DNA of 59,656 bases. Source: an uncultured Dehalococcoidia bacterium. GTDB taxonomy: Bacteria; Chloroflexota; Dehalococcoidia; Lucifugimonadales; UBA6927. Numbering within the stretch: position 1 is the first letter of the stretch; every line of letters begins with the position of its first letter. Under the pieces are notes generated by a model. The model was given only the letters and a program-made list of their open reading frames with translations, was not told the origin of the DNA and searched no databases. This document shows positions 983 to 6,631 of this stretch, in pieces. The translations under genes and the position numbers were made by a program. The DNA is taken from assembly GCA_964637555.1 (NCBI GenBank), contig CAZWTJ010000002.1, forward strand, positions 1-59,656, given 5' to 3'.

Positions 983-1378
983 TTAATTTTCTACAGAAAT
1001 CTCTAATAAGGATTCACCTGTTTTTATTTGATCTGATTCTTTAACATTTATTTGTGTGACTATTCCGTCATAAGAAGAGCGTAAAATCTGCTGGATTTTC
1101 ATCGTCTCTATCACACACAATTCAGTTCCCGAATGGACTTCATCCCCTTCCGAAACTAATATTGATACAACAACACCAGGCATAGGTGACACAAAACTTT
1201 GTTTTCCACTGTTGCGCTTAGATGGCTTACCATCAACGTCATTCTTAGATTGAATGCTTGCTAGCGAAACATGAAATTCTTCTCCGTCAACATTAGCTAT
1301 TACAGGATCAGAATCTAAAGAATCTATTTTTACACTAAACCATTTATCGTTAATTTTTACTCTTAATGAATATGACAT
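983..1378 (-). CDS. Free biotin carboxyl carrier protein (GcdC/MmdC-like biotinyl subunit)
   Basis: 131 aa. The C-terminal biotinyl/lipoyl-type domain has CVIETMKIQQ (E-x-M-K biotinylation motif). The N-terminus has beta-hairpin-like repeats SLRVKINDKWFSVKID and VIANVDGEEFHVSL. Starts 9 nt after the beta-subunit gene. Confidence 0.75.
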   Translation of the reverse strand: MSYSLRVKINDKWFSVKIDSLDSDPVIANVDGEEFHVSLASIQSKNDVDGKPSKRNSGKQSFVSPMPGVVVSILVSEGDEVHSGTELCVIETMKIQQILRSSYDGIVTQINVKESDQIKTGESLLEISVEN

Positions 1379-1387
1379 ACCTTAATC

Positions 1388-2560
1388 TTAACTAATTATA
1401 GAAACGAATATCCCAGCGACTACTGCCGAACCTATCACTCCAGCAACATTTGGTGCCATAGCATGAGGTAATAAATAGTTATCAGAGTCTTCTTCTTGCC
1501 CTACTTGATGTGAAATCCTTGCCGCCATAGGCACTGCTGAAACACCTGCAGATCCTATCAAAGGATTAATCTTGTTTGATTTCTCTCTAATAAAAATATT
1601 CATTAATTTTGCAAATAACACTCCAAAGACTGTACCTAACACCAATGCCATCAAACCTAATGCCAATATTAGCGTTGTTTCTAACTGAAATATCTTATCT
1701 GCTGCTAGTTGTGCACCTATGGTGATCATTAAAAGTGTTGTCACCAAATTTAACAATTCATTGGACACAGTAGACGTAAGGCGGGGTACCACTCCACTTT
1801 CCTTGAAAATATTTCCTATCATAAACATAGCAATCAACGGTGCAGACTGAGGAACAATTAAAATAATTATTAGCATAGCAGCCATAGGGAAAATGATCTT
1901 TTTTGTCTTTGAAATTTCAGGAGCAGGCTTCATACGAATCAACCGTTCATTTCTTGTAGTAAGTAACTTCATGATTGGAGGTTGAATAATCGCCACCAAC
2001 GCCATATATGAATATGCAACTACAGCCGTAATCCCTAAAAGTTCCGGAGCAATTCGTCCTGACAGGAAAATCGTTGTGGGGCCATCCGCTCCACCAATAA
2101 TTGAAATTACTGCCGATTGTGCAATAGAAAAGCCTTCAAACCCGGGGATTAAACTGCTCATGATTGCTGCCCAAAACGCAATGAAAATCCCGATTTGTGC
2201 TGCCGCACCTAATAATAGTGTCTTAGGATTCGAAATGAGCGGACCAAAGTCTGTCATAGCTCCAAGCCCCAAAAATATCAAAGGTGGTAGAATGTTCCAA
2301 TGTGCAAGCCCATAATGAAAAATCACTCCTATTATTCCGGAATCTTGGGCTAAATCGGAGCTTGGGCTGAACAAAGTAATTCCAGTTAATGGCAGATTTC
2401 CTACAATTATTCCTAATCCAATCGGAAGTAATTCATATGGTTCAACATTTTTTCTTATTGCCAACAAAACAAATAAAACACCAACACTTATCATTACAAT
2501 TTCTTGCCAACTGATATGAGTAAGTCCCATATTTTCGAGTATATTAATTAATTCTGGCAT
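1388..2560 (-). CDS. Na+-translocating decarboxylase beta subunit (OadB/GcdB/MmdB family)
   Basis: 390-aa polytopic membrane protein. The blocks VEPYELLPIGLGIIVGNLP, IIGGADGPTTIFL, NPLIGSAGVSAVPMAARI and YLLPHAMAPNVAGVIGSA match the conserved regions of this family. Confidence 0.9.
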   Translation of the reverse strand: MPELINILENMGLTHISWQEIVMISVGVLFVLLAIRKNVEPYELLPIGLGIIVGNLPLTGITLFSPSSDLAQDSGIIGVIFHYGLAHWNILPPLIFLGLGAMTDFGPLISNPKTLLLGAAAQIGIFIAFWAAIMSSLIPGFEGFSIAQSAVISIIGGADGPTTIFLSGRIAPELLGITAVVAYSYMALVAIIQPPIMKLLTTRNERLIRMKPAPEISKTKKIIFPMAAMLIIILIVPQSAPLIAMFMIGNIFKESGVVPRLTSTVSNELLNLVTTLLMITIGAQLAADKIFQLETTLILALGLMALVLGTVFGVLFAKLMNIFIREKSNKINPLIGSAGVSAVPMAARISHQVGQEEDSDNYLLPHAMAPNVAGVIGSAVVAGIFVSIIS

Positions 2561-4453: not shown

Positions 4454-5588
4454 TAATCTTATAGAAATTATAGAACCTGGAGTATTATCAACTATCCAGG
4501 ATTTGGGAAGGTTTGGATATCAGAAATATGGTGTGCCTGTTTCTGGTGCTATGGATCAATTCGCATACAGAGTCGGGAACATCTTAACAAACAATAATCA
4601 AAATTCTGCATCGATTGAGACTACCGTTTTTGGGTTAAAGTTCAAATTTTTAAAAGATTCAGTTTTCGCTTTAACTGGTGGAAATTTAGATCCATCTATT
4701 AATCAAAAACCTATAATGATGTGGCAATCAATTATTGCAAAAGAAAACGATATCCTTGAATTCCAAACACCGATGGATGGTTGCAGATCCTACATATCAT
4801 TTGAGGGAGGGATTTCACTTCCAGATATTTTAGGAAGCAAATCTACTTACGTTAATTCGAATCTAGGTGGCTTTCACGGCCGTTCACTACTCAGTGGTGA
4901 CATTCTAACAAACGAACAAACTTTTGAACCTAACAAATACGTACACAGAAGATTTCCTCCAAAATTACTGGCACCAAATTATGGACATGATCATGAAATA
5001 AGAGTGATTTTAGGCCCACAACAACGATCATTCACAGCAAAAGGCATCGAAACTTTTCAAGAGTCAGAATATATTGTATCTGATCAATCCAACAGAATAG
5101 GATATAGATTAGAAGGTCCTAAAATCGAACACTTCGGCAGCTCCGATATACTATCAGACGGTACCATGATGGGTTCAATACAGGTTCCGGGAAATGGAAA
5201 TCCTATAATATTAATGTCCGATCGAGGAGTTACTGGAGGATATCCTAAAATTGCTACTGTCATTTCTTCTGATATTAGTAAAATCGCACAAGCCCTACCC
5301 GGAGATAAAATTAAATTCCTTGTCATATCTAATCGTGAAGCAGAATCAATCCTTACTTCAACTGAGAACCTAATATCGAACATTGCGGAAACATCTTCAG
5401 ACTCAATTGATCAAAGGCTAAACATACTAGTCAACGACATATCTTATGAAGTAATTGACGAACAAAATGAAATCATAACTACCTCAGAAGAATTCTCGGA
5501 AATTGACGCACAAATTATATCTGCTAGAGTCAAAAATGCTAATGAAATTCATAATTTCAATATTGAGGTACGGAGGCAGTCAGAATGA
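4446..5588 (+). CDS. pxpC: AHS2/KipA family biotin-dependent carboxyltransferase-type protein (PxpC-like) with non-canonical C-terminal tail
   Basis: I moved the start to ATG 4446 ([37 protein letters not shown]), which overlaps the pxpB stop as ATGAGTAA. The AHS2 core includes [28 protein letters not shown]. About 67 extra residues follow residue ~313. Confidence 0.8.
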   Translation: [380 protein letters not shown]

Positions 5589-6631
5589 ACGAACGCATTT
5601 GCATATTTGGCGTAGGAGCTGTGGGAAGCTATATAGGTGGACACCTTACAAAAGCTGGCCACGATGTCACTCTGATTGACATGTGGGGTTCACATATTGA
5701 TTCAATGAGCGATCATGGATTAACCATCAATGATTTAAACTTTTCAAATTGTGTAAAAGTTAATGCTATACATTTAACTGATACTATTAATATCCTCGGA
5801 AAATTTGACATTATATTTGTATGTGTTAAATCTTTTGACACAGAATGGGCTTCTCATTATGTTAAAAACATTGTCAAACCAAATGGAATAGTAATCTCTG
5901 CTCAAAATTGTATGAACGACACCAAAATTTCTTCAATCGTCGGAGCTAATCAAGCAATTGGGATGGTAATGTCAACAATATCGGTCGCACTTTGGGAACC
6001 TGCAGTAGTAACGCGAGGTGGGGCAACAGGAAAAGAACGAGGATATGTTATTTTTCGAATCGGGGAACTTCATGGAAGAATCACTGAAAGAGTCAACAGA
6101 CTAGTTGAAATTATGGGTGATGTAGACACTGCAACTCCTACATCAAATATTTGGGGAGAACGCTGGTCAAAACTTGCAGCAAATGCAAGTTCAAACCCTG
6201 TACAAGGAATGACAGGATTGGCATCTGCATTAGGATCTAGTCCCGATGCTAGGAGGATACAAATTGAGATAGCTAAAGAGGTTATACAAGTTGGAATGGC
6301 CTTAGGCTTCAATATAGAAGAATTTAAGGGGTTTCCAGCAGAAAAATGGGCTAATGCTGATGATGGATCTATTTTTGAAGAATTAGATGAATTATTTGTT
6401 ACAGAATTAAAACCAGAAGGCACAGATCACTTCTCATCAATGGCTCAAGACACATCAAAAAAGAGGCATTCCGAAGTACAATATATGAATGGGTTCATAT
6501 CAAATGAGGGTCGGAAAATAGGAATCCCAACTCCTGCTAACGACGCAGTAACAGCAATAATTTCAGAAATTGATCTTCAAAAATCTAGGCCTACCCCAGA
6601 AAACATTAAACGCGCACTTGAGATGATGTAG
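5585..6631 (+). CDS. Ketopantoate reductase (ApbA/PanE) family 2-oxoacid reductase
   Basis: Rossmann N-terminus ICIFGVGAVGSYIGGHLTKAGHDVTLI. C-terminal blocks WSKLAANASSNPV and SSMAQDTSKKRHSEVQYMNG...GIPTPAND. ATGA overlap with pxpC. Confidence 0.75.
   Translation: MNERICIFGVGAVGSYIGGHLTKAGHDVTLIDMWGSHIDSMSDHGLTINDLNFSNCVKVNAIHLTDTINILGKFDIIFVCVKSFDTEWASHYVKNIVKPNGIVISAQNCMNDTKISSIVGANQAIGMVMSTISVALWEPAVVTRGGATGKERGYVIFRIGELHGRITERVNRLVEIMGDVDTATPTSNIWGERWSKLAANASSNPVQGMTGLASALGSSPDARRIQIEIAKEVIQVGMALGFNIEEFKGFPAEKWANADDGSIFEELDELFVTELKPEGTDHFSSMAQDTSKKRHSEVQYMNGFISNEGRKIGIPTPANDAVTAIISEIDLQKSRPTPENIKRALEMM

What the first reader, a model, noticed from the sequence alone, without database searches (positions are those of the whole stretch)
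983..6631. Alpha-less Na+-translocating decarboxylase module facing a PxpABC-type (AHS1/AHS2 carboxyltransferase) operon: possible new class of Na+-coupled biotin enzyme
Seen: a minus-strand operon runs OadG-like (2569-2787), OadB-like (1388-2560), free biotin carrier (983-1378), with 8-9 nt gaps. No OadA-, MmdA- or GcdA-type carboxyltransferase (alpha) gene occurs anywhere in the 59 kb. Only 150 nt away and divergent lies a translationally coupled operon: LamB/PxpA, AHS1/PxpB, AHS2/PxpC with an extra tail, and a ketopantoate-reductase-like enzyme (ATGAGTAA and ATGA overlaps). Established: AHS1/AHS2 (KipI/KipA) domains form the carboxyltransferase domain of urea carboxylase, and the AHS2 family is commonly annotated as biotin-dependent carboxyltransferase. 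Characterised Na+-pumping decarboxylases use OadA-type, acyl-CoA carboxyltransferase-type (MmdA/GcdA) or malonate-type CT subunits, not this fold. Inference: the two operons may encode one system in which PxpB/C-type CT moves CO2 between a substrate and the free carrier. OadB would then decarboxylate carboxybiotin to pump Na+, or run in reverse so that the Na+ gradient replaces an ATP-dependent biotin carboxylase. LamB and the reductase would process the substrate or product. Counter-hypothesis: the alpha subunit is encoded elsewhere, as gcdA is separate from gcdDCB in Acidaminococcus, and the adjacency is coincidental in a compact genome.
Basis: partly seen in the sequence, partly recalled or inferred. 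Interest (0 to 1): 0.7.

Follow-up and report, generated by a model that had tools for sequence, protein, structure and literature searches.

The report
Sodium pump teamed with lactam-opening enzyme
In deep-ocean SAR202 bacteria, the membrane part of a sodium-pumping biotin enzyme has lost its usual catalytic partner and stays beside, and probably docks onto, a lactam-opening (PxpABC-type) enzyme, which points to an undescribed sodium-coupled biotin enzyme.

Summary
OadG-like, OadB and a free biotin carrier (983-2787, minus) lie 150 nt from, and divergent to, PxpA-PxpB-PxpC(+tail)-ApbA-like-VTT/DedA (2938-7275). The window holds no alpha-type carboxyltransferase and no biotin carboxylase.

The source is a SAR202 (Chloroflexota) bacterium. 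The adjacency is a conserved module, not chance:
- 0 of 32 OadB loci in the Chloroflexota clade carry a canonical alpha gene, against 26 of 39 outgroup loci.
- Among loci fetched through PxpC, 20 of 26 lineages with a tailed PxpC have OadB beside pxpA. None of 6 untailed or biotin-fused ones do.
- No other neighbouring gene is shared by more than 6 of 20 lineages.

The ~60-aa PxpC tail folds as two beta-hairpins. At profile level it resembles the anchor domain at the carrier's N-terminus (hhalign P 1.4e-5, about 9 SD above shuffles). Natural PxpC-tail-BCCP fusions exist. A 2026 cryo-EM study shows a PxpC/PxpB-type complex binding BCCP biotin.

Best reading: PxpBC is the carboxyltransferase of a membrane-docked, Na+-coupled biotin enzyme that acts on a lactam. 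The direction is unresolved: Na+-driven carboxylation that replaces ATP, or decarboxylation that pumps Na+. An alpha subunit encoded elsewhere in the genome could not be excluded.

The parts
983..1378 (-). Free biotin carboxyl carrier protein (131 aa). It has an N-terminal two-hairpin anchor domain (aa 1-45), a linker, and a biotinyl domain with an ETMKI motif.
   Evidence: Pfam Biotin_lipoyl 4.6e-16. NCBIfam alignments place aa 4-128 on the last ~125 positions of the PycB and OadA models. The family alignment shows both hairpins and an invariant biotinyl Lys.
1388..2560 (-). OadB-family carboxybiotin decarboxylase / Na+ translocator (390 aa).
   Evidence: OAD_beta 4e-135. TIGR01109 scores 440 bits against a cutoff of 190. 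The alignment to Salmonella OadB (6IVA) keeps D203, Y229, N373, G377, S382 and R389.
2569..2787 (-). OadG-like membrane anchor (72 aa): one TM helix plus a C-terminal amphipathic helix, EAAKAAAIAVTVMKF.
   Evidence: OAD_gamma is only E=0.0064 for the window copy. Orthologues hit PF04277. The '(D/N)(K/R)ALAAA(I/V)AV' helix is conserved across loci.
2788..2937 (.). AT-rich divergent spacer shared by the two operons, with a palindrome at 2786-2813.
   Evidence: It is 84.7% nt-identical to L082, more than any flanking gene (68-82%), and contains a 57-nt invariant block. Promoter-like matches are not above chance.
2938..3708 (+). PxpA / LamB-YcsF family protein, the putative lactam-ring hydrolase subunit.
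   Evidence: LamB_YcsF 1e-89. NF003814 PxpA subfamily scores 318 bits against a cutoff of 226.
3719..4453 (+). PxpB (KipI/AHS1; carboxyltransferase subdomains C and D).
   Evidence: CT_C_D 3e-72. TIGR00370 scores 205 bits against a cutoff of 146. PDB relatives are PH0987, KipI, YbgJ and MSMEG_0436.
4446..5396 (+). PxpC core (KipA/AHS2; carboxyltransferase subdomains A and B).
   Evidence: CT_A_B 1e-89. It passes TIGR00724 but fails the PxpC equivalog NF045499, at 245 bits against a cutoff of 500. The AF2 model matches E. coli YbgK, the urea carboxylase CT domain and MSMEG_0435, with TM 0.9 on the target.
5397..5588 (+). PxpC C-terminal tail (aa ~318-380): two beta-hairpins, proposed as the docking (association) domain.
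   Evidence: AF2 places strands at 323-334 and 354-379 with pLDDT 75-83. The tail is conserved in about 50 lineages. hhalign against the BCCP N-terminal domain gives 80% probability, P 1.4e-5 and score 25.9, against 8.2±1.9 for shuffles. No Pfam family covers it. A library-wide profile search finds it only at PxpC C-termini.
5585..6631 (+). ApbA/PanE-like NAD(P)-dependent oxidoreductase, translationally coupled to pxpC by an ATGA overlap.
   Evidence: ApbA and ApbA_C domains. TIGR00745 scores 155 bits against a cutoff of 141. It follows PxpC in about a third of lineages.
6643..7275 (+). VTT/DedA-family membrane protein, a near-constant last gene of the pxp operon in this subfamily.
   Evidence: VTT_dom 3e-17. 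It is present in 17 of 20 non-redundant adjacency loci, and also in tailed-Pxp loci that lack OadB.

Best explanation
The two divergent operons encode one membrane-docked, biotin-dependent enzyme found in SAR202/Dehalococcoidia.

Proposed assembly:
- The PxpB-PxpC pair takes the place of the alpha (carboxyltransferase) subunit of a Na+-translocating decarboxylase.
- OadG anchors in the membrane next to OadB.
- OadG's C-terminal amphipathic helix is clasped by beta-hairpins. Two come from the PxpC tail and two from the N-terminus of the free BCCP.
- This would form a BT/PT-like association domain assembled from separate chains.
- The biotinyl domain then swings between the PxpBC active site and OadB.

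Most likely chemistry (inferred):
1. OadB runs in the carboxylating direction. Na+ influx from seawater drives formation of carboxybiotin.
2. PxpBC transfers the carboxyl group to the amide of a lactam. The substrate would be 5-oxoproline or a related lactam, perhaps released by the associated Xaa-Pro-dipeptidase-like amidohydrolase.
3. PxpA hydrolyses the activated ring.
4. The resulting carbamate loses CO2 spontaneously.

The net effect is lactam hydrolysis paid for by the Na+ gradient rather than by ATP. This 'carboxylate-then-hydrolyse' logic is the same as in urea amidolyase.

My confidence that PxpBC is the functional partner of the OadGB-BCCP module is about 0.8. For the full mechanism, including direction, it is about 0.4.
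For: Shown:
- All parts are present and intact. OadB keeps its six functional residues, and the biotinyl Lys is conserved.
- Canonical alpha genes are absent beside OadB in 0 of 32 Chloroflexota-clade loci, against 26 of 39 outgroup loci. The window itself has none.
- Pxp lies divergent to OadG-OadB-BCCP in 8 of 13 species-level genomes of the OadB-BCCP subclade. This pattern crosses the deepest split of the clade.
- In the PxpC-first sample, 20 of 26 tailed lineages have OadB adjacent, against 0 of 6 untailed or fused ones.
- Other arrangements keep the link. L096 has OadB convergent downstream of pxpC, and L092 and L128 keep only the BCCP beside pxpA.
- Module genes are shared by 13-20 of 20 lineages. 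Any other neighbouring family is shared by at most 6 of 20.
- The same Xaa-Pro-dipeptidase-like amidohydrolase family sits beside BCCP in L001 and L008 and beside pxpA in L105.
- The spacer is more conserved than the flanking genes.
- The tail forms two hairpins that resemble the BCCP N-terminal anchor at profile level.
- P0024 and six loci carry PxpC fused to a biotinyl domain.

From the literature:
- The gamma C-terminal helix binds the association domain of alpha (PMC7274780).
- The N-terminus of GcdC is its anchor (PMC7145394).
- MSMEG_0435-0436 binds BCCP biotin 'positioned to participate in a carboxylation reaction' (PMC13012033).
- 5-oxoproline hydrolysis is uphill, with Keq about 0.035 (PMC13274462).
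- Pxp paralogues act on different lactams.
- OAD and MMD are reversible in vitro (Dimroth & Hilpert 1984, as cited).
Against: - No biochemical data exist for any member of this system.
- Whole genomes could not be scanned, so an alpha subunit or a biotin carboxylase encoded elsewhere is not excluded.
- Genes of this system do scatter in Chloroflexota. Sixteen species have an orphan OadB. In one 3.64-Mb contig, pxp and OadB-BCCP lie 630 kb apart.
- Canonical PxpBC are reported to hydrolyse ATP without biotin. PxpA and PxpB here still pass NCBI's 5-oxoprolinase models.
- The tail profile does not retrieve BCCP N-termini in a library-wide search. The homology claim therefore rests on one profile-profile comparison.
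- Reverse operation of an OadB pump has not been demonstrated in vivo.
- Many adjacency cases may descend from a single ancestral arrangement, so the counts are not independent events.
Confidence: 0.4

Rival explanations
1. Same complex, forward direction: a fifth kind of Na+-pumping decarboxylase. PxpA, perhaps with the amidohydrolase, opens a cyclic amide to give an N- or C-carboxylated product. PxpBC moves that carboxyl group onto biotin, as in the reverse of the urea-carboxylase CT reaction. OadB then decarboxylates carboxybiotin and exports Na+, conserving energy.
For: - Every characterised OadB-family enzyme works physiologically as a decarboxylation-driven Na+ exporter (PMC7274780 and PMC7145394).
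- OadB's catalytic residues are intact.
- All the linkage evidence applies equally to this reading.
Against: - No carboxyl-donor substrate is known for the PxpBC/UC CT fold other than allophanate-type compounds.
- The known Pxp reaction, lactam hydrolysis, is energy-consuming rather than energy-yielding.
- PxpC-BCCP fusions that have no OadB nearby would need a carboxyl acceptor if the family worked in this direction. They fit better with carboxybiotin being supplied to PxpBC, as does the mycobacterial structure with a BC-containing partner.
Confidence: 0.27
2. Two independent systems. PxpABC is an ordinary ATP-dependent 5-oxoprolinase or lactamase. OadG-OadB-BCCP is the membrane part of a conventional decarboxylase, for example methylmalonyl-CoA decarboxylase, whose alpha subunit is encoded elsewhere. 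Adjacency would then reflect inherited synteny or mere co-regulation.
For: - Split decarboxylase loci do occur. Orphan OadB is found in 16 Dehalococcoidia species, and OadB-BCCP without Pxp in 5 species.
- pxp and OadB lie 630 kb apart in one genome.
- PxpA and PxpB pass NCBIfam 5-oxoprolinase models.
- Six tailed-Pxp lineages lack OadB within at least 4.8 kb.
Against: - The module is retained across PxpC divergence down to about 40% identity, while all other neighbouring genes turn over.
- Adjacency is re-created in a different geometry in L096, and the BCCP alone stays with pxp in L092 and L128.
- The tail occurs only in this PxpC subfamily and resembles the carrier's anchor domain.
- PxpC fails the PxpC equivalog model, at 245 bits against a cutoff of 500.
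- The amidohydrolase gene appears in either operon.
- 0 of 32 loci have an alpha gene, against 26 of 39 in outgroups.
Confidence: 0.15
3. Regulatory sequestration. Tailed PxpBC binds the carrier's biotin to throttle an OadB-dependent decarboxylase. This would parallel MSMEG_0435-0436 lowering propionyl-CoA carboxylase activity, or KipI/KipA acting as regulators. PxpBC would not catalyse carboxyl transfer itself.
For: - MSMEG_0435-0436 sequesters BCCP biotin and lowers LCC activity, with no urea carboxylase activity detected (PMC13012033).
- KipI/KipA have a regulatory history, cited in the same paper.
Against: - PxpA, the hydrolase subunit, is always co-encoded and tightly coupled with PxpB and PxpC.
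- There is still no catalytic alpha subunit to regulate.
- PxpC-BCCP fusions make more sense as enzymes with a built-in cofactor arm than as inhibitors.
Confidence: 0.06

Closest known systems
Na+-translocating oxaloacetate decarboxylase OadABG (TC 3.B.1; structure 6IVA/6IWW)
   Same: - An OadB homologue with all key residues.
- A small gamma-type anchor with a C-terminal amphipathic helix.
- A biotin carrier.
- The fused relative P0024 has the order CT - hairpin domain - BCCP, the same as OadA's CT - association domain - BCCP.
   Different: - The carboxyltransferase is not the OadA TIM-barrel (HMGL/PYC_OADA) type. It is the four-subdomain PxpB/PxpC (urea-carboxylase CT) fold, split over two genes.
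- The carrier is a separate protein.
- The gene order is G-B-carrier.
- A PxpA hydrolase is part of the system.
Methylmalonyl-CoA and glutaconyl-CoA decarboxylases (MmdABCDE, GcdABCD)
   Same: - A free BCCP subunit with an N-terminal anchor of about 30-45 aa, then a linker and a biotinyl domain.
- A delta/gamma anchor subunit.
- An OadB-type beta subunit.
- These OadBs are the nearest outgroups in the tree.
   Different: - Alpha is an acyl-CoA carboxyltransferase (Carboxyl_trans) encoded next to beta in most outgroup loci, but never in the SAR202 clade.
- The BCCP gene lies upstream of beta in the outgroups and downstream here.
Prokaryotic 5-oxoprolinase PxpABC (Niehaus et al. 2017; E. coli YbgJKL, B. 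subtilis KipI/KipA/YcsF)
   Same: - Three co-transcribed subunits of the same folds.
- PxpA and PxpB pass NCBI's family models.
- The PxpC core superposes on E. coli YbgK (TM 0.94 on the target).
   Different: - PxpC carries a two-hairpin tail of about 60 aa and fails the PxpC equivalog model.
- The operon is tied to OadG-OadB-BCCP, a DedA/VTT protein and often an ApbA-like reductase, rather than to the PxpT/YcsG transporter.
- The canonical enzyme is reported to be ATP-dependent and biotin-independent.
Urea carboxylase / urea amidolyase
   Same: - The same CT fold (subdomains A-D) using BCCP-bound biotin.
- The proposed 'carboxylate an amide, then hydrolyse it' logic.
   Different: - There is no biotin carboxylase domain or gene here. 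OadB would supply or consume the carboxybiotin.
- The hydrolase is PxpA (LamB family), not an allophanate hydrolase.
- The subunits are separate proteins.
[quoted passage not shown]
   Same: A stand-alone PxpC/PxpB-type heterodimer physically binds a BCCP domain and inserts its biotin into the CT-like pocket.
   Different: - The partner there is a soluble ATP-dependent carboxylase.
- The observed effect is inhibitory.
- It has no tail, no OadB/OadG and no clustered PxpA role.

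Membership tests
Na+-translocating biotin decarboxylase (OAD/MMD/GCD/MAD family) | Beta subunit of the OadB family with the residues needed for carboxybiotin decarboxylation and Na+ transport | tested here: met
   OAD_beta 4e-135. TIGR01109 scores 440 bits against a cutoff of 190. D203, Y229, N373, G377, S382 and R389 are conserved in the alignment to 6IVA.
Na+-translocating biotin decarboxylase (OAD/MMD/GCD/MAD family) | Small gamma/delta anchor: one TM helix plus a C-terminal helix that binds the soluble subunits | tested here: met
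   The window copy is sub-threshold for PF04277 (E 0.0064). Orthologues hit it, and both the TM helix and the ALAAAIAV helix are conserved.
Na+-translocating biotin decarboxylase (OAD/MMD/GCD/MAD family) | Biotinyl carrier domain or subunit | tested here: met
   Biotin_lipoyl 4.6e-16. The (A/T)MK motif Lys is invariant in the family alignment.
Na+-translocating biotin decarboxylase (OAD/MMD/GCD/MAD family) | Alpha carboxyltransferase of OadA, MmdA/GcdA or malonate type | tested here: not met
   None is in the window. None occurs within ±10 kb in 32 clade loci, against 26 of 39 outgroup loci. The rest of the genome could not be searched.
Na+-translocating biotin decarboxylase (OAD/MMD/GCD/MAD family) | Substrate decarboxylation coupled to Na+ export | not testable with these tools
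   This needs proteoliposome or vesicle assays.
Prokaryotic 5-oxoprolinase PxpABC | Clustered PxpA (LamB/YcsF), PxpB (CT_C_D) and PxpC (CT_A_B) genes | tested here: met
   The genes are at 2938-5588, with a 10-nt gap and an 8-nt overlap.
Prokaryotic 5-oxoprolinase PxpABC | Each subunit reaches NCBI's curated model for the 5-oxoprolinase subunit | tested here: inconclusive
   PxpA passes subfamily model NF003814 (318 bits, cutoff 226). PxpB passes TIGR00370 (205 bits, cutoff 146). PxpC fails equivalog NF045499 (245 bits, cutoff 500) and passes only the generic TIGR00724.
Prokaryotic 5-oxoprolinase PxpABC | ATP-dependent, biotin-independent hydrolysis of 5-oxoproline | not testable with these tools
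   This is a biochemical property. Genomic linkage to BCCP/OadB and the existence of PxpC-BCCP fusions argue that this subfamily uses biotin.
Biotin-dependent carboxylase of the urea carboxylase type | CT domain with subdomains A-D | tested here: met
   Pfam CT_A_B and CT_C_D. The AF2 model aligns to K. lactis UC/UA over about 340 columns at E 1e-26.
Biotin-dependent carboxylase of the urea carboxylase type | ATP-grasp biotin carboxylase domain or subunit | tested here: not met
   No BC domain is found in any window ORF of at least 280 aa. The BC signature motif is absent from the window and from 161 loci, although no positive control was available. The rest of the genome was not searched.
Biotin-dependent carboxylase of the urea carboxylase type | Catalytic residues of the UC carboxyl-transfer site (e.g. 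Lys1605 of K. lactis UA) | tested here: inconclusive
   The PxpB-UC alignment is too weak to map K1605. A candidate Lys, K172, is not conserved within the tailed or fused groups.

The most novel reading that the evidence does not exclude
SAR202 bacteria run an OadB-type pump backwards in vivo. The seawater Na+ gradient makes carboxybiotin, and CO2 acts as a recycled, catalytic activating group. The amide is carboxylated by PxpBC and hydrolysed by PxpA, after which the carbamate decarboxylates spontaneously. Energetically uphill lactam opening would therefore be paid for with ions rather than ATP. This would be the first ion-gradient-driven biotin carboxylation with a physiological role, and a new energy-coupling mode for amide hydrolysis in the deep ocean.
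Probability: 0.4. Interest if true: 0.9.

Novelty: new variant of a known kind. Interest (0 to 1): 0.78.

Why it matters
All four known classes of Na+-translocating biotin decarboxylases use an OadA-type, an acyl-CoA-type or a malonate-type carboxyltransferase. A fifth class built on the PxpB/PxpC (urea-carboxylase) fold would widen the chemistry that can be coupled to a Na+ gradient, from C-carboxyl groups of keto acids and thioesters to amide or lactam substrates.

It would also give a biochemical role to the large, poorly understood set of 'biotin-dependent carboxyltransferase family' PxpC-like proteins, and to the recently seen binding of such proteins to BCCP in mycobacteria.

SAR202 is among the most abundant bacterial groups in the dark ocean and is thought to degrade recalcitrant dissolved organic matter. 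A Na+-coupled route for opening lactams would bear on how these cells economise energy and recycle organic nitrogen. If the pump runs in reverse, it would be the first physiological example of ion-gradient-driven biotin carboxylation, which so far has been shown only in vitro.

Tried and rejected
1. **Tail against Pfam.** Scanning the tail, the BCCP N-terminus and OadG at E<=10 found no family for the tail or the anchor.
2. **Tail profile against 1.84 billion representatives.** It found only PxpC C-termini, fragments and giant repeat proteins. No BCCP N-termini or OadA association domains appeared, so library-scale homology is not shown.
3. **Folding the docking model.** The docking model remains untested.
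4. **Mapping the urea-carboxylase general base K1605 onto PxpB.** The alignment is too weak. The candidate K172 in GSVGIADKQTGIYP is not conserved in the tailed group (mostly Ser) or the fused group (Ala), so I rejected it as a discriminator.
5. **Promoter and terminator scan of 900-7400.** Matches are at chance level.
6. **Rfam and tRNA scans of the window.** Nothing was found.
7. **Biotin-carboxylase signature motif.** It is absent from all 161 loci and from the window, but no positive control was available.
8. **Literature searches.** I found no description of an OadB-Pxp system.
9. **Amidohydrolase 'bridge'.** The copy beside pxpA (L105) is only distantly related to those beside BCCP (188 against 666-917 bits with the L001 query). 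All three share the same best NCBIfam model, so I treat this as supportive rather than decisive.
10. **Chance or residual synteny.** I considered and rejected this as the explanation for the adjacency.

Full report
**Observation**

- On the minus strand are a 72-aa OadG-like protein (2569-2787), OadB (1388-2560) and a 131-aa biotin carrier (983-1378). The gaps between them are 8 and 9 nt.
- After a 150-nt AT-rich spacer, the plus strand carries PxpA (2938-3708), PxpB (3719-4453), PxpC (4446-5588, ATGAGTAA overlap) and an ApbA/PanE-like reductase (5585-6631, ATGA overlap).
- I add a VTT/DedA membrane protein at 6643-7275.

Pfam and NCBIfam confirm the families.
- OadB is unambiguous, at 4e-135.
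- The OadG-like ORF is sub-threshold on its own (E 0.0064).
- PxpA and PxpB pass NCBI's 5-oxoprolinase models.
- PxpC passes only the generic 'urea amidolyase-related' domain model and fails the PxpC equivalog (245 bits against a cutoff of 500).
- CT_A_B covers aa 28-291 of PxpC, which leaves a tail of about 60 residues.

Every window ORF of at least 280 aa was scanned. All six-frame segments were also searched with Pfam-verified MmdA- and OadA-type queries. The 59.7 kb contain no alpha-type carboxyltransferase and no biotin carboxylase.

**Source**

The closest OadB and PxpC relatives are named SAR202 cluster / Chloroflexota / Dehalococcoidia. The species-level match is a Station ALOHA SAR202 MAG (L013).

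**The OadB side**

A scan of species-representative genomes returned 68 OadB loci with 10-kb flanks. I called ORFs and searched them with the window's proteins and with verified alpha queries.
- In the outgroups (Bacteroidales, Cloacimonadota, Clostridia, deltaproteobacteria), 26 of 39 loci carry an MmdA-type or OadA-type carboxyltransferase, and the BCCP gene lies upstream of OadB.
- In the Chloroflexota clade, 0 of 32 loci have an alpha gene, and the order is OadG-OadB-BCCP.
- Within that clade, 8 species have PxpABC divergent to OadG, 5 have OadG-OadB-BCCP alone, and 16 (a high-GC subclade) have an orphan OadG-OadB.
- On an OadB tree the Pxp-adjacent state spans the deepest split: the window plus L013 against all the rest. 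Non-adjacent lineages are nested inside it. The adjacency is therefore ancestral and was lost at least three times.
- In one 3.64-Mb contig the two halves are 630 kb apart (L007 and L008).
- In other SAR202 genomes the OadGB-BCCP module sits next to the suf-TatD-Yip1 backbone. The window also has this backbone, at 36.8-46.4 kb, but without the module.

**The PxpC side**

PxpC homologues fall into three groups:
- a tailed group of about 366-390 aa;
- an untailed group of about 313-319 aa;
- a group fused to a biotinyl domain.

A metagenome scan with a tailed-PxpC alignment gave 80 loci. I collapsed these at 95% PxpC identity and kept only loci with enough sequence upstream of pxpA.
- Of lineages fetched through PxpC, 20 of 26 tailed ones have OadB, and usually the BCCP, divergent to pxpA.
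- None of 4 untailed and none of 2 fused lineages do.

The exceptions are informative.
- L096 has OadB convergent, downstream of pxpC.
- L092 and L128 keep only the BCCP next to pxpA.

In 20 non-redundant loci, PxpA/B/C, OadB, BCCP and VTT recur in 13-20 lineages. No other neighbouring gene family recurs in more than 6. This is a conserved module, not residual synteny.

Two independent IS insertions inside the module have not dispersed it (L001, L012).

The shared spacer is better conserved between the window and L082 (84.7% nt) than any flanking gene (68-82%).

**The tail**

- Fifty tails align as two hairpins, 'ΦxΦxVDGxxFEVxDExG' and 'AxAxVxGxxYxFxVEV', joined by a variable linker.
- AlphaFold2 run with the family alignment gives a confident core (mean pLDDT 84). 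After helix 296-316 it places strands at 323-334 and 354-379, with pLDDT 75-83.
- The core matches E. coli YbgK, the K. lactis urea carboxylase CT domain and MSMEG_0435. The tail has no counterpart in those structures.
- The carrier's N-terminus has the same look: LRVKINDKWFSVKID in the carrier against [14 protein letters not shown] in the tail.
- hhalign aligns tail and carrier N-terminus hairpin for hairpin, with 80% probability, P 1.4e-5 and score 25.9. Two hundred column-shuffled controls gave 8.2±1.9 with a maximum of 16.9, and the reversed control gave 12.0.
- NCBIfam places the carrier's aa 4-128 on the last ~125 positions of the PycB and OadA models. That puts the hairpins where OadA has its association domain.
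- The OadG-like proteins conserve a TM helix and a C-terminal '(D/N)(K/R)ALAAA(I/V)AV' helix.

Published work shows that the gamma C-terminal amphipathic helix binds OadA's association domain to form a PT-like domain, and that deleting it releases alpha (PMC7274780). The N-terminal ~30 aa of GcdC are described as its anchor (PMC7145394).

P0024 has the order PxpC core - tail - linker - biotinyl domain, the same as OadA, and is followed by PxpA.

Two limits apply. A tail-only profile searched against 1.84 billion representatives finds only PxpC C-termini.

**Integrity of the pump and accessory genes**

OadB keeps D203, Y229, N373, G377, S382 and R389. The importance of these residues is from my own knowledge of the mutagenesis literature and the 6IVA paper.

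The biotinyl Lys is invariant.

An amidohydrolase whose best model is the Xaa-Pro-dipeptidase type follows BCCP in L001 and L008 and precedes pxpA in L105. This ties the OadB-BCCP operon to amide and peptide hydrolysis, even in a genome where pxp is distant.

**Literature context**

- Canonical PxpBC are thought to activate 5-oxoproline with ATP, and PxpA to open the ring. The reaction is uphill, with Keq about 0.035 (PMC13274462 and PMC8453981).
- Pxp paralogues in P. putida handle different lactams.
- A 2026 cryo-EM study shows the PxpC/PxpB homologues MSMEG_0435-0436 binding BCCP domains with the biotin 'positioned to participate in a carboxylation reaction' (PMC13012033).
- OAD and MMD are reversible in vitro. 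A carboxylating role driven by Na+ import has been proposed, but not tested, for marine autotrophs.
- No paper describing an OadB-Pxp system was found.

**Interpretation**

The evidence supports one system in which tailed PxpBC replaces the alpha subunit of a Na+-translocating biotin enzyme. I put this at about 0.8.

For direction I favour Na+-driven carboxybiotin formation that activates a lactam for PxpA hydrolysis, with CO2 recycled. My reasons:
- It keeps the known net reaction of Pxp enzymes and meets their energy requirement.
- It mirrors urea amidolyase, which uses the same CT fold.
- It fits the biotin-fused PxpC proteins and the mycobacterial structure, where carboxybiotin is supplied to the PxpC-type pocket.

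The forward, Na+-exporting decarboxylase reading is the main rival, because every characterised OadB works that way. Independent systems with an alpha subunit encoded elsewhere, or a purely regulatory sequestration of the carrier, remain possible but fit the data less well.

**Membership and novelty**

The locus meets the beta, gamma and carrier criteria of the Na+-decarboxylase family but not the alpha criterion. It meets the gene-content criterion of PxpABC, but PxpC fails the equivalog model. It has the urea-carboxylase CT fold but no biotin carboxylase. I therefore do not file it as a member of any one of these. I rate it a new variant (a new subunit combination) of Na+-coupled biotin enzymes, confined so far to SAR202/Dehalococcoidia.

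**Limits**

- Whole genomes could not be searched.
- The counts are not phylogenetically independent.
- The substrate, the direction and the physical complex are all inferred.

Noticed in passing
L001-L003 4923-6150; L012 11201-12382: IS elements are inserted inside the module in two lineages. In L001-L003 an rve-type IS lies between OadG and pxpA. In L012 an IS481-like element lies between OadB and the BCCP gene. The module has stayed together in both.
   Followed up: partly
L038 (CAZUXZ010000125.1): A 3-kb contig binned in an 'uncultured Rhizobiaceae' MAG carries pxpCBA-OadG-OadB that is 90% identical to the SAR202 window. It is probably mis-binned.
   Followed up: no
window 36822-46411 versus L010, L014, L015, L017, L018: The suf operon - SBP_bac_5 - TatD - Yip1 backbone is shared with other SAR202 genomes. 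In those genomes OadG-OadB-BCCP follows Yip1. In the window the module is absent there and sits beside pxp instead, so it has been relocated.
   Followed up: partly
L023-L036, L057, L058 (around 9500-11150 in each locus): A high-GC Dehalococcoidia subclade has an orphan OadB preceded by a long OadG (133 aa, PF04277 5e-8). This OadG carries a conserved basic C-terminal extension, 'GWREQGRMxAFDxRRxRERDR', and lies next to an enoyl-CoA hydratase. No BCCP, alpha or Pxp gene lies within 10 kb. The partner of this OadB is unknown.
   Followed up: partly
L139, L141, L145, L147, L157 (PxpC 431-436 aa); L155 (668 aa); L161/P0024: PxpC occurs fused to a C-terminal biotinyl domain. In L155 the fusion is PxpB-PxpC-BCCP. 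P0024 keeps the tail between the core and the BCCP domain. No OadB and no biotin carboxylase lies nearby, so the source of carboxybiotin for these enzymes is unknown.
   Followed up: partly
L092 7271-10587; L128 7011-11137: In two lineages from one sample series (Ga0194132), only the BCCP gene lies divergent to pxpA-pxpB-pxpC(tail). In L128 a 6PGDH-like NAD-binding/DUF1932 gene accompanies it. No OadB lies within about 8 kb.
   Followed up: partly
window 2786-2813 and 2788-2937: The spacer contains a near-palindrome, ATTTACACACAATTAA/TTAATTTTGATTAAAT, and a 57-nt block that is invariant in relatives whose proteins are only about 80% identical. This may be a shared operator for the two operons.
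   Followed up: partly
P0242 (2334 aa, 14 stretches), P0245, P0255, P0261 and others: The tail-only profile also hits giant repetitive proteins many times over. This is probably generic beta-hairpin repeat similarity and was not examined.
   Followed up: no
window 9664-12027: A 787-aa protein has two CoA_transf_3 stretches, so it looks like a tandem family-III CoA-transferase. It sits among thiolase, MR/MLE enolase, old-yellow-enzyme and CoxL-like genes that are typical of SAR202 catabolic islands.
   Followed up: no
L001 9202-9447: An 81-aa ORF with no Pfam match is inserted between pxpC and the ApbA-like gene in the L001-L003 lineage.
   Followed up: no
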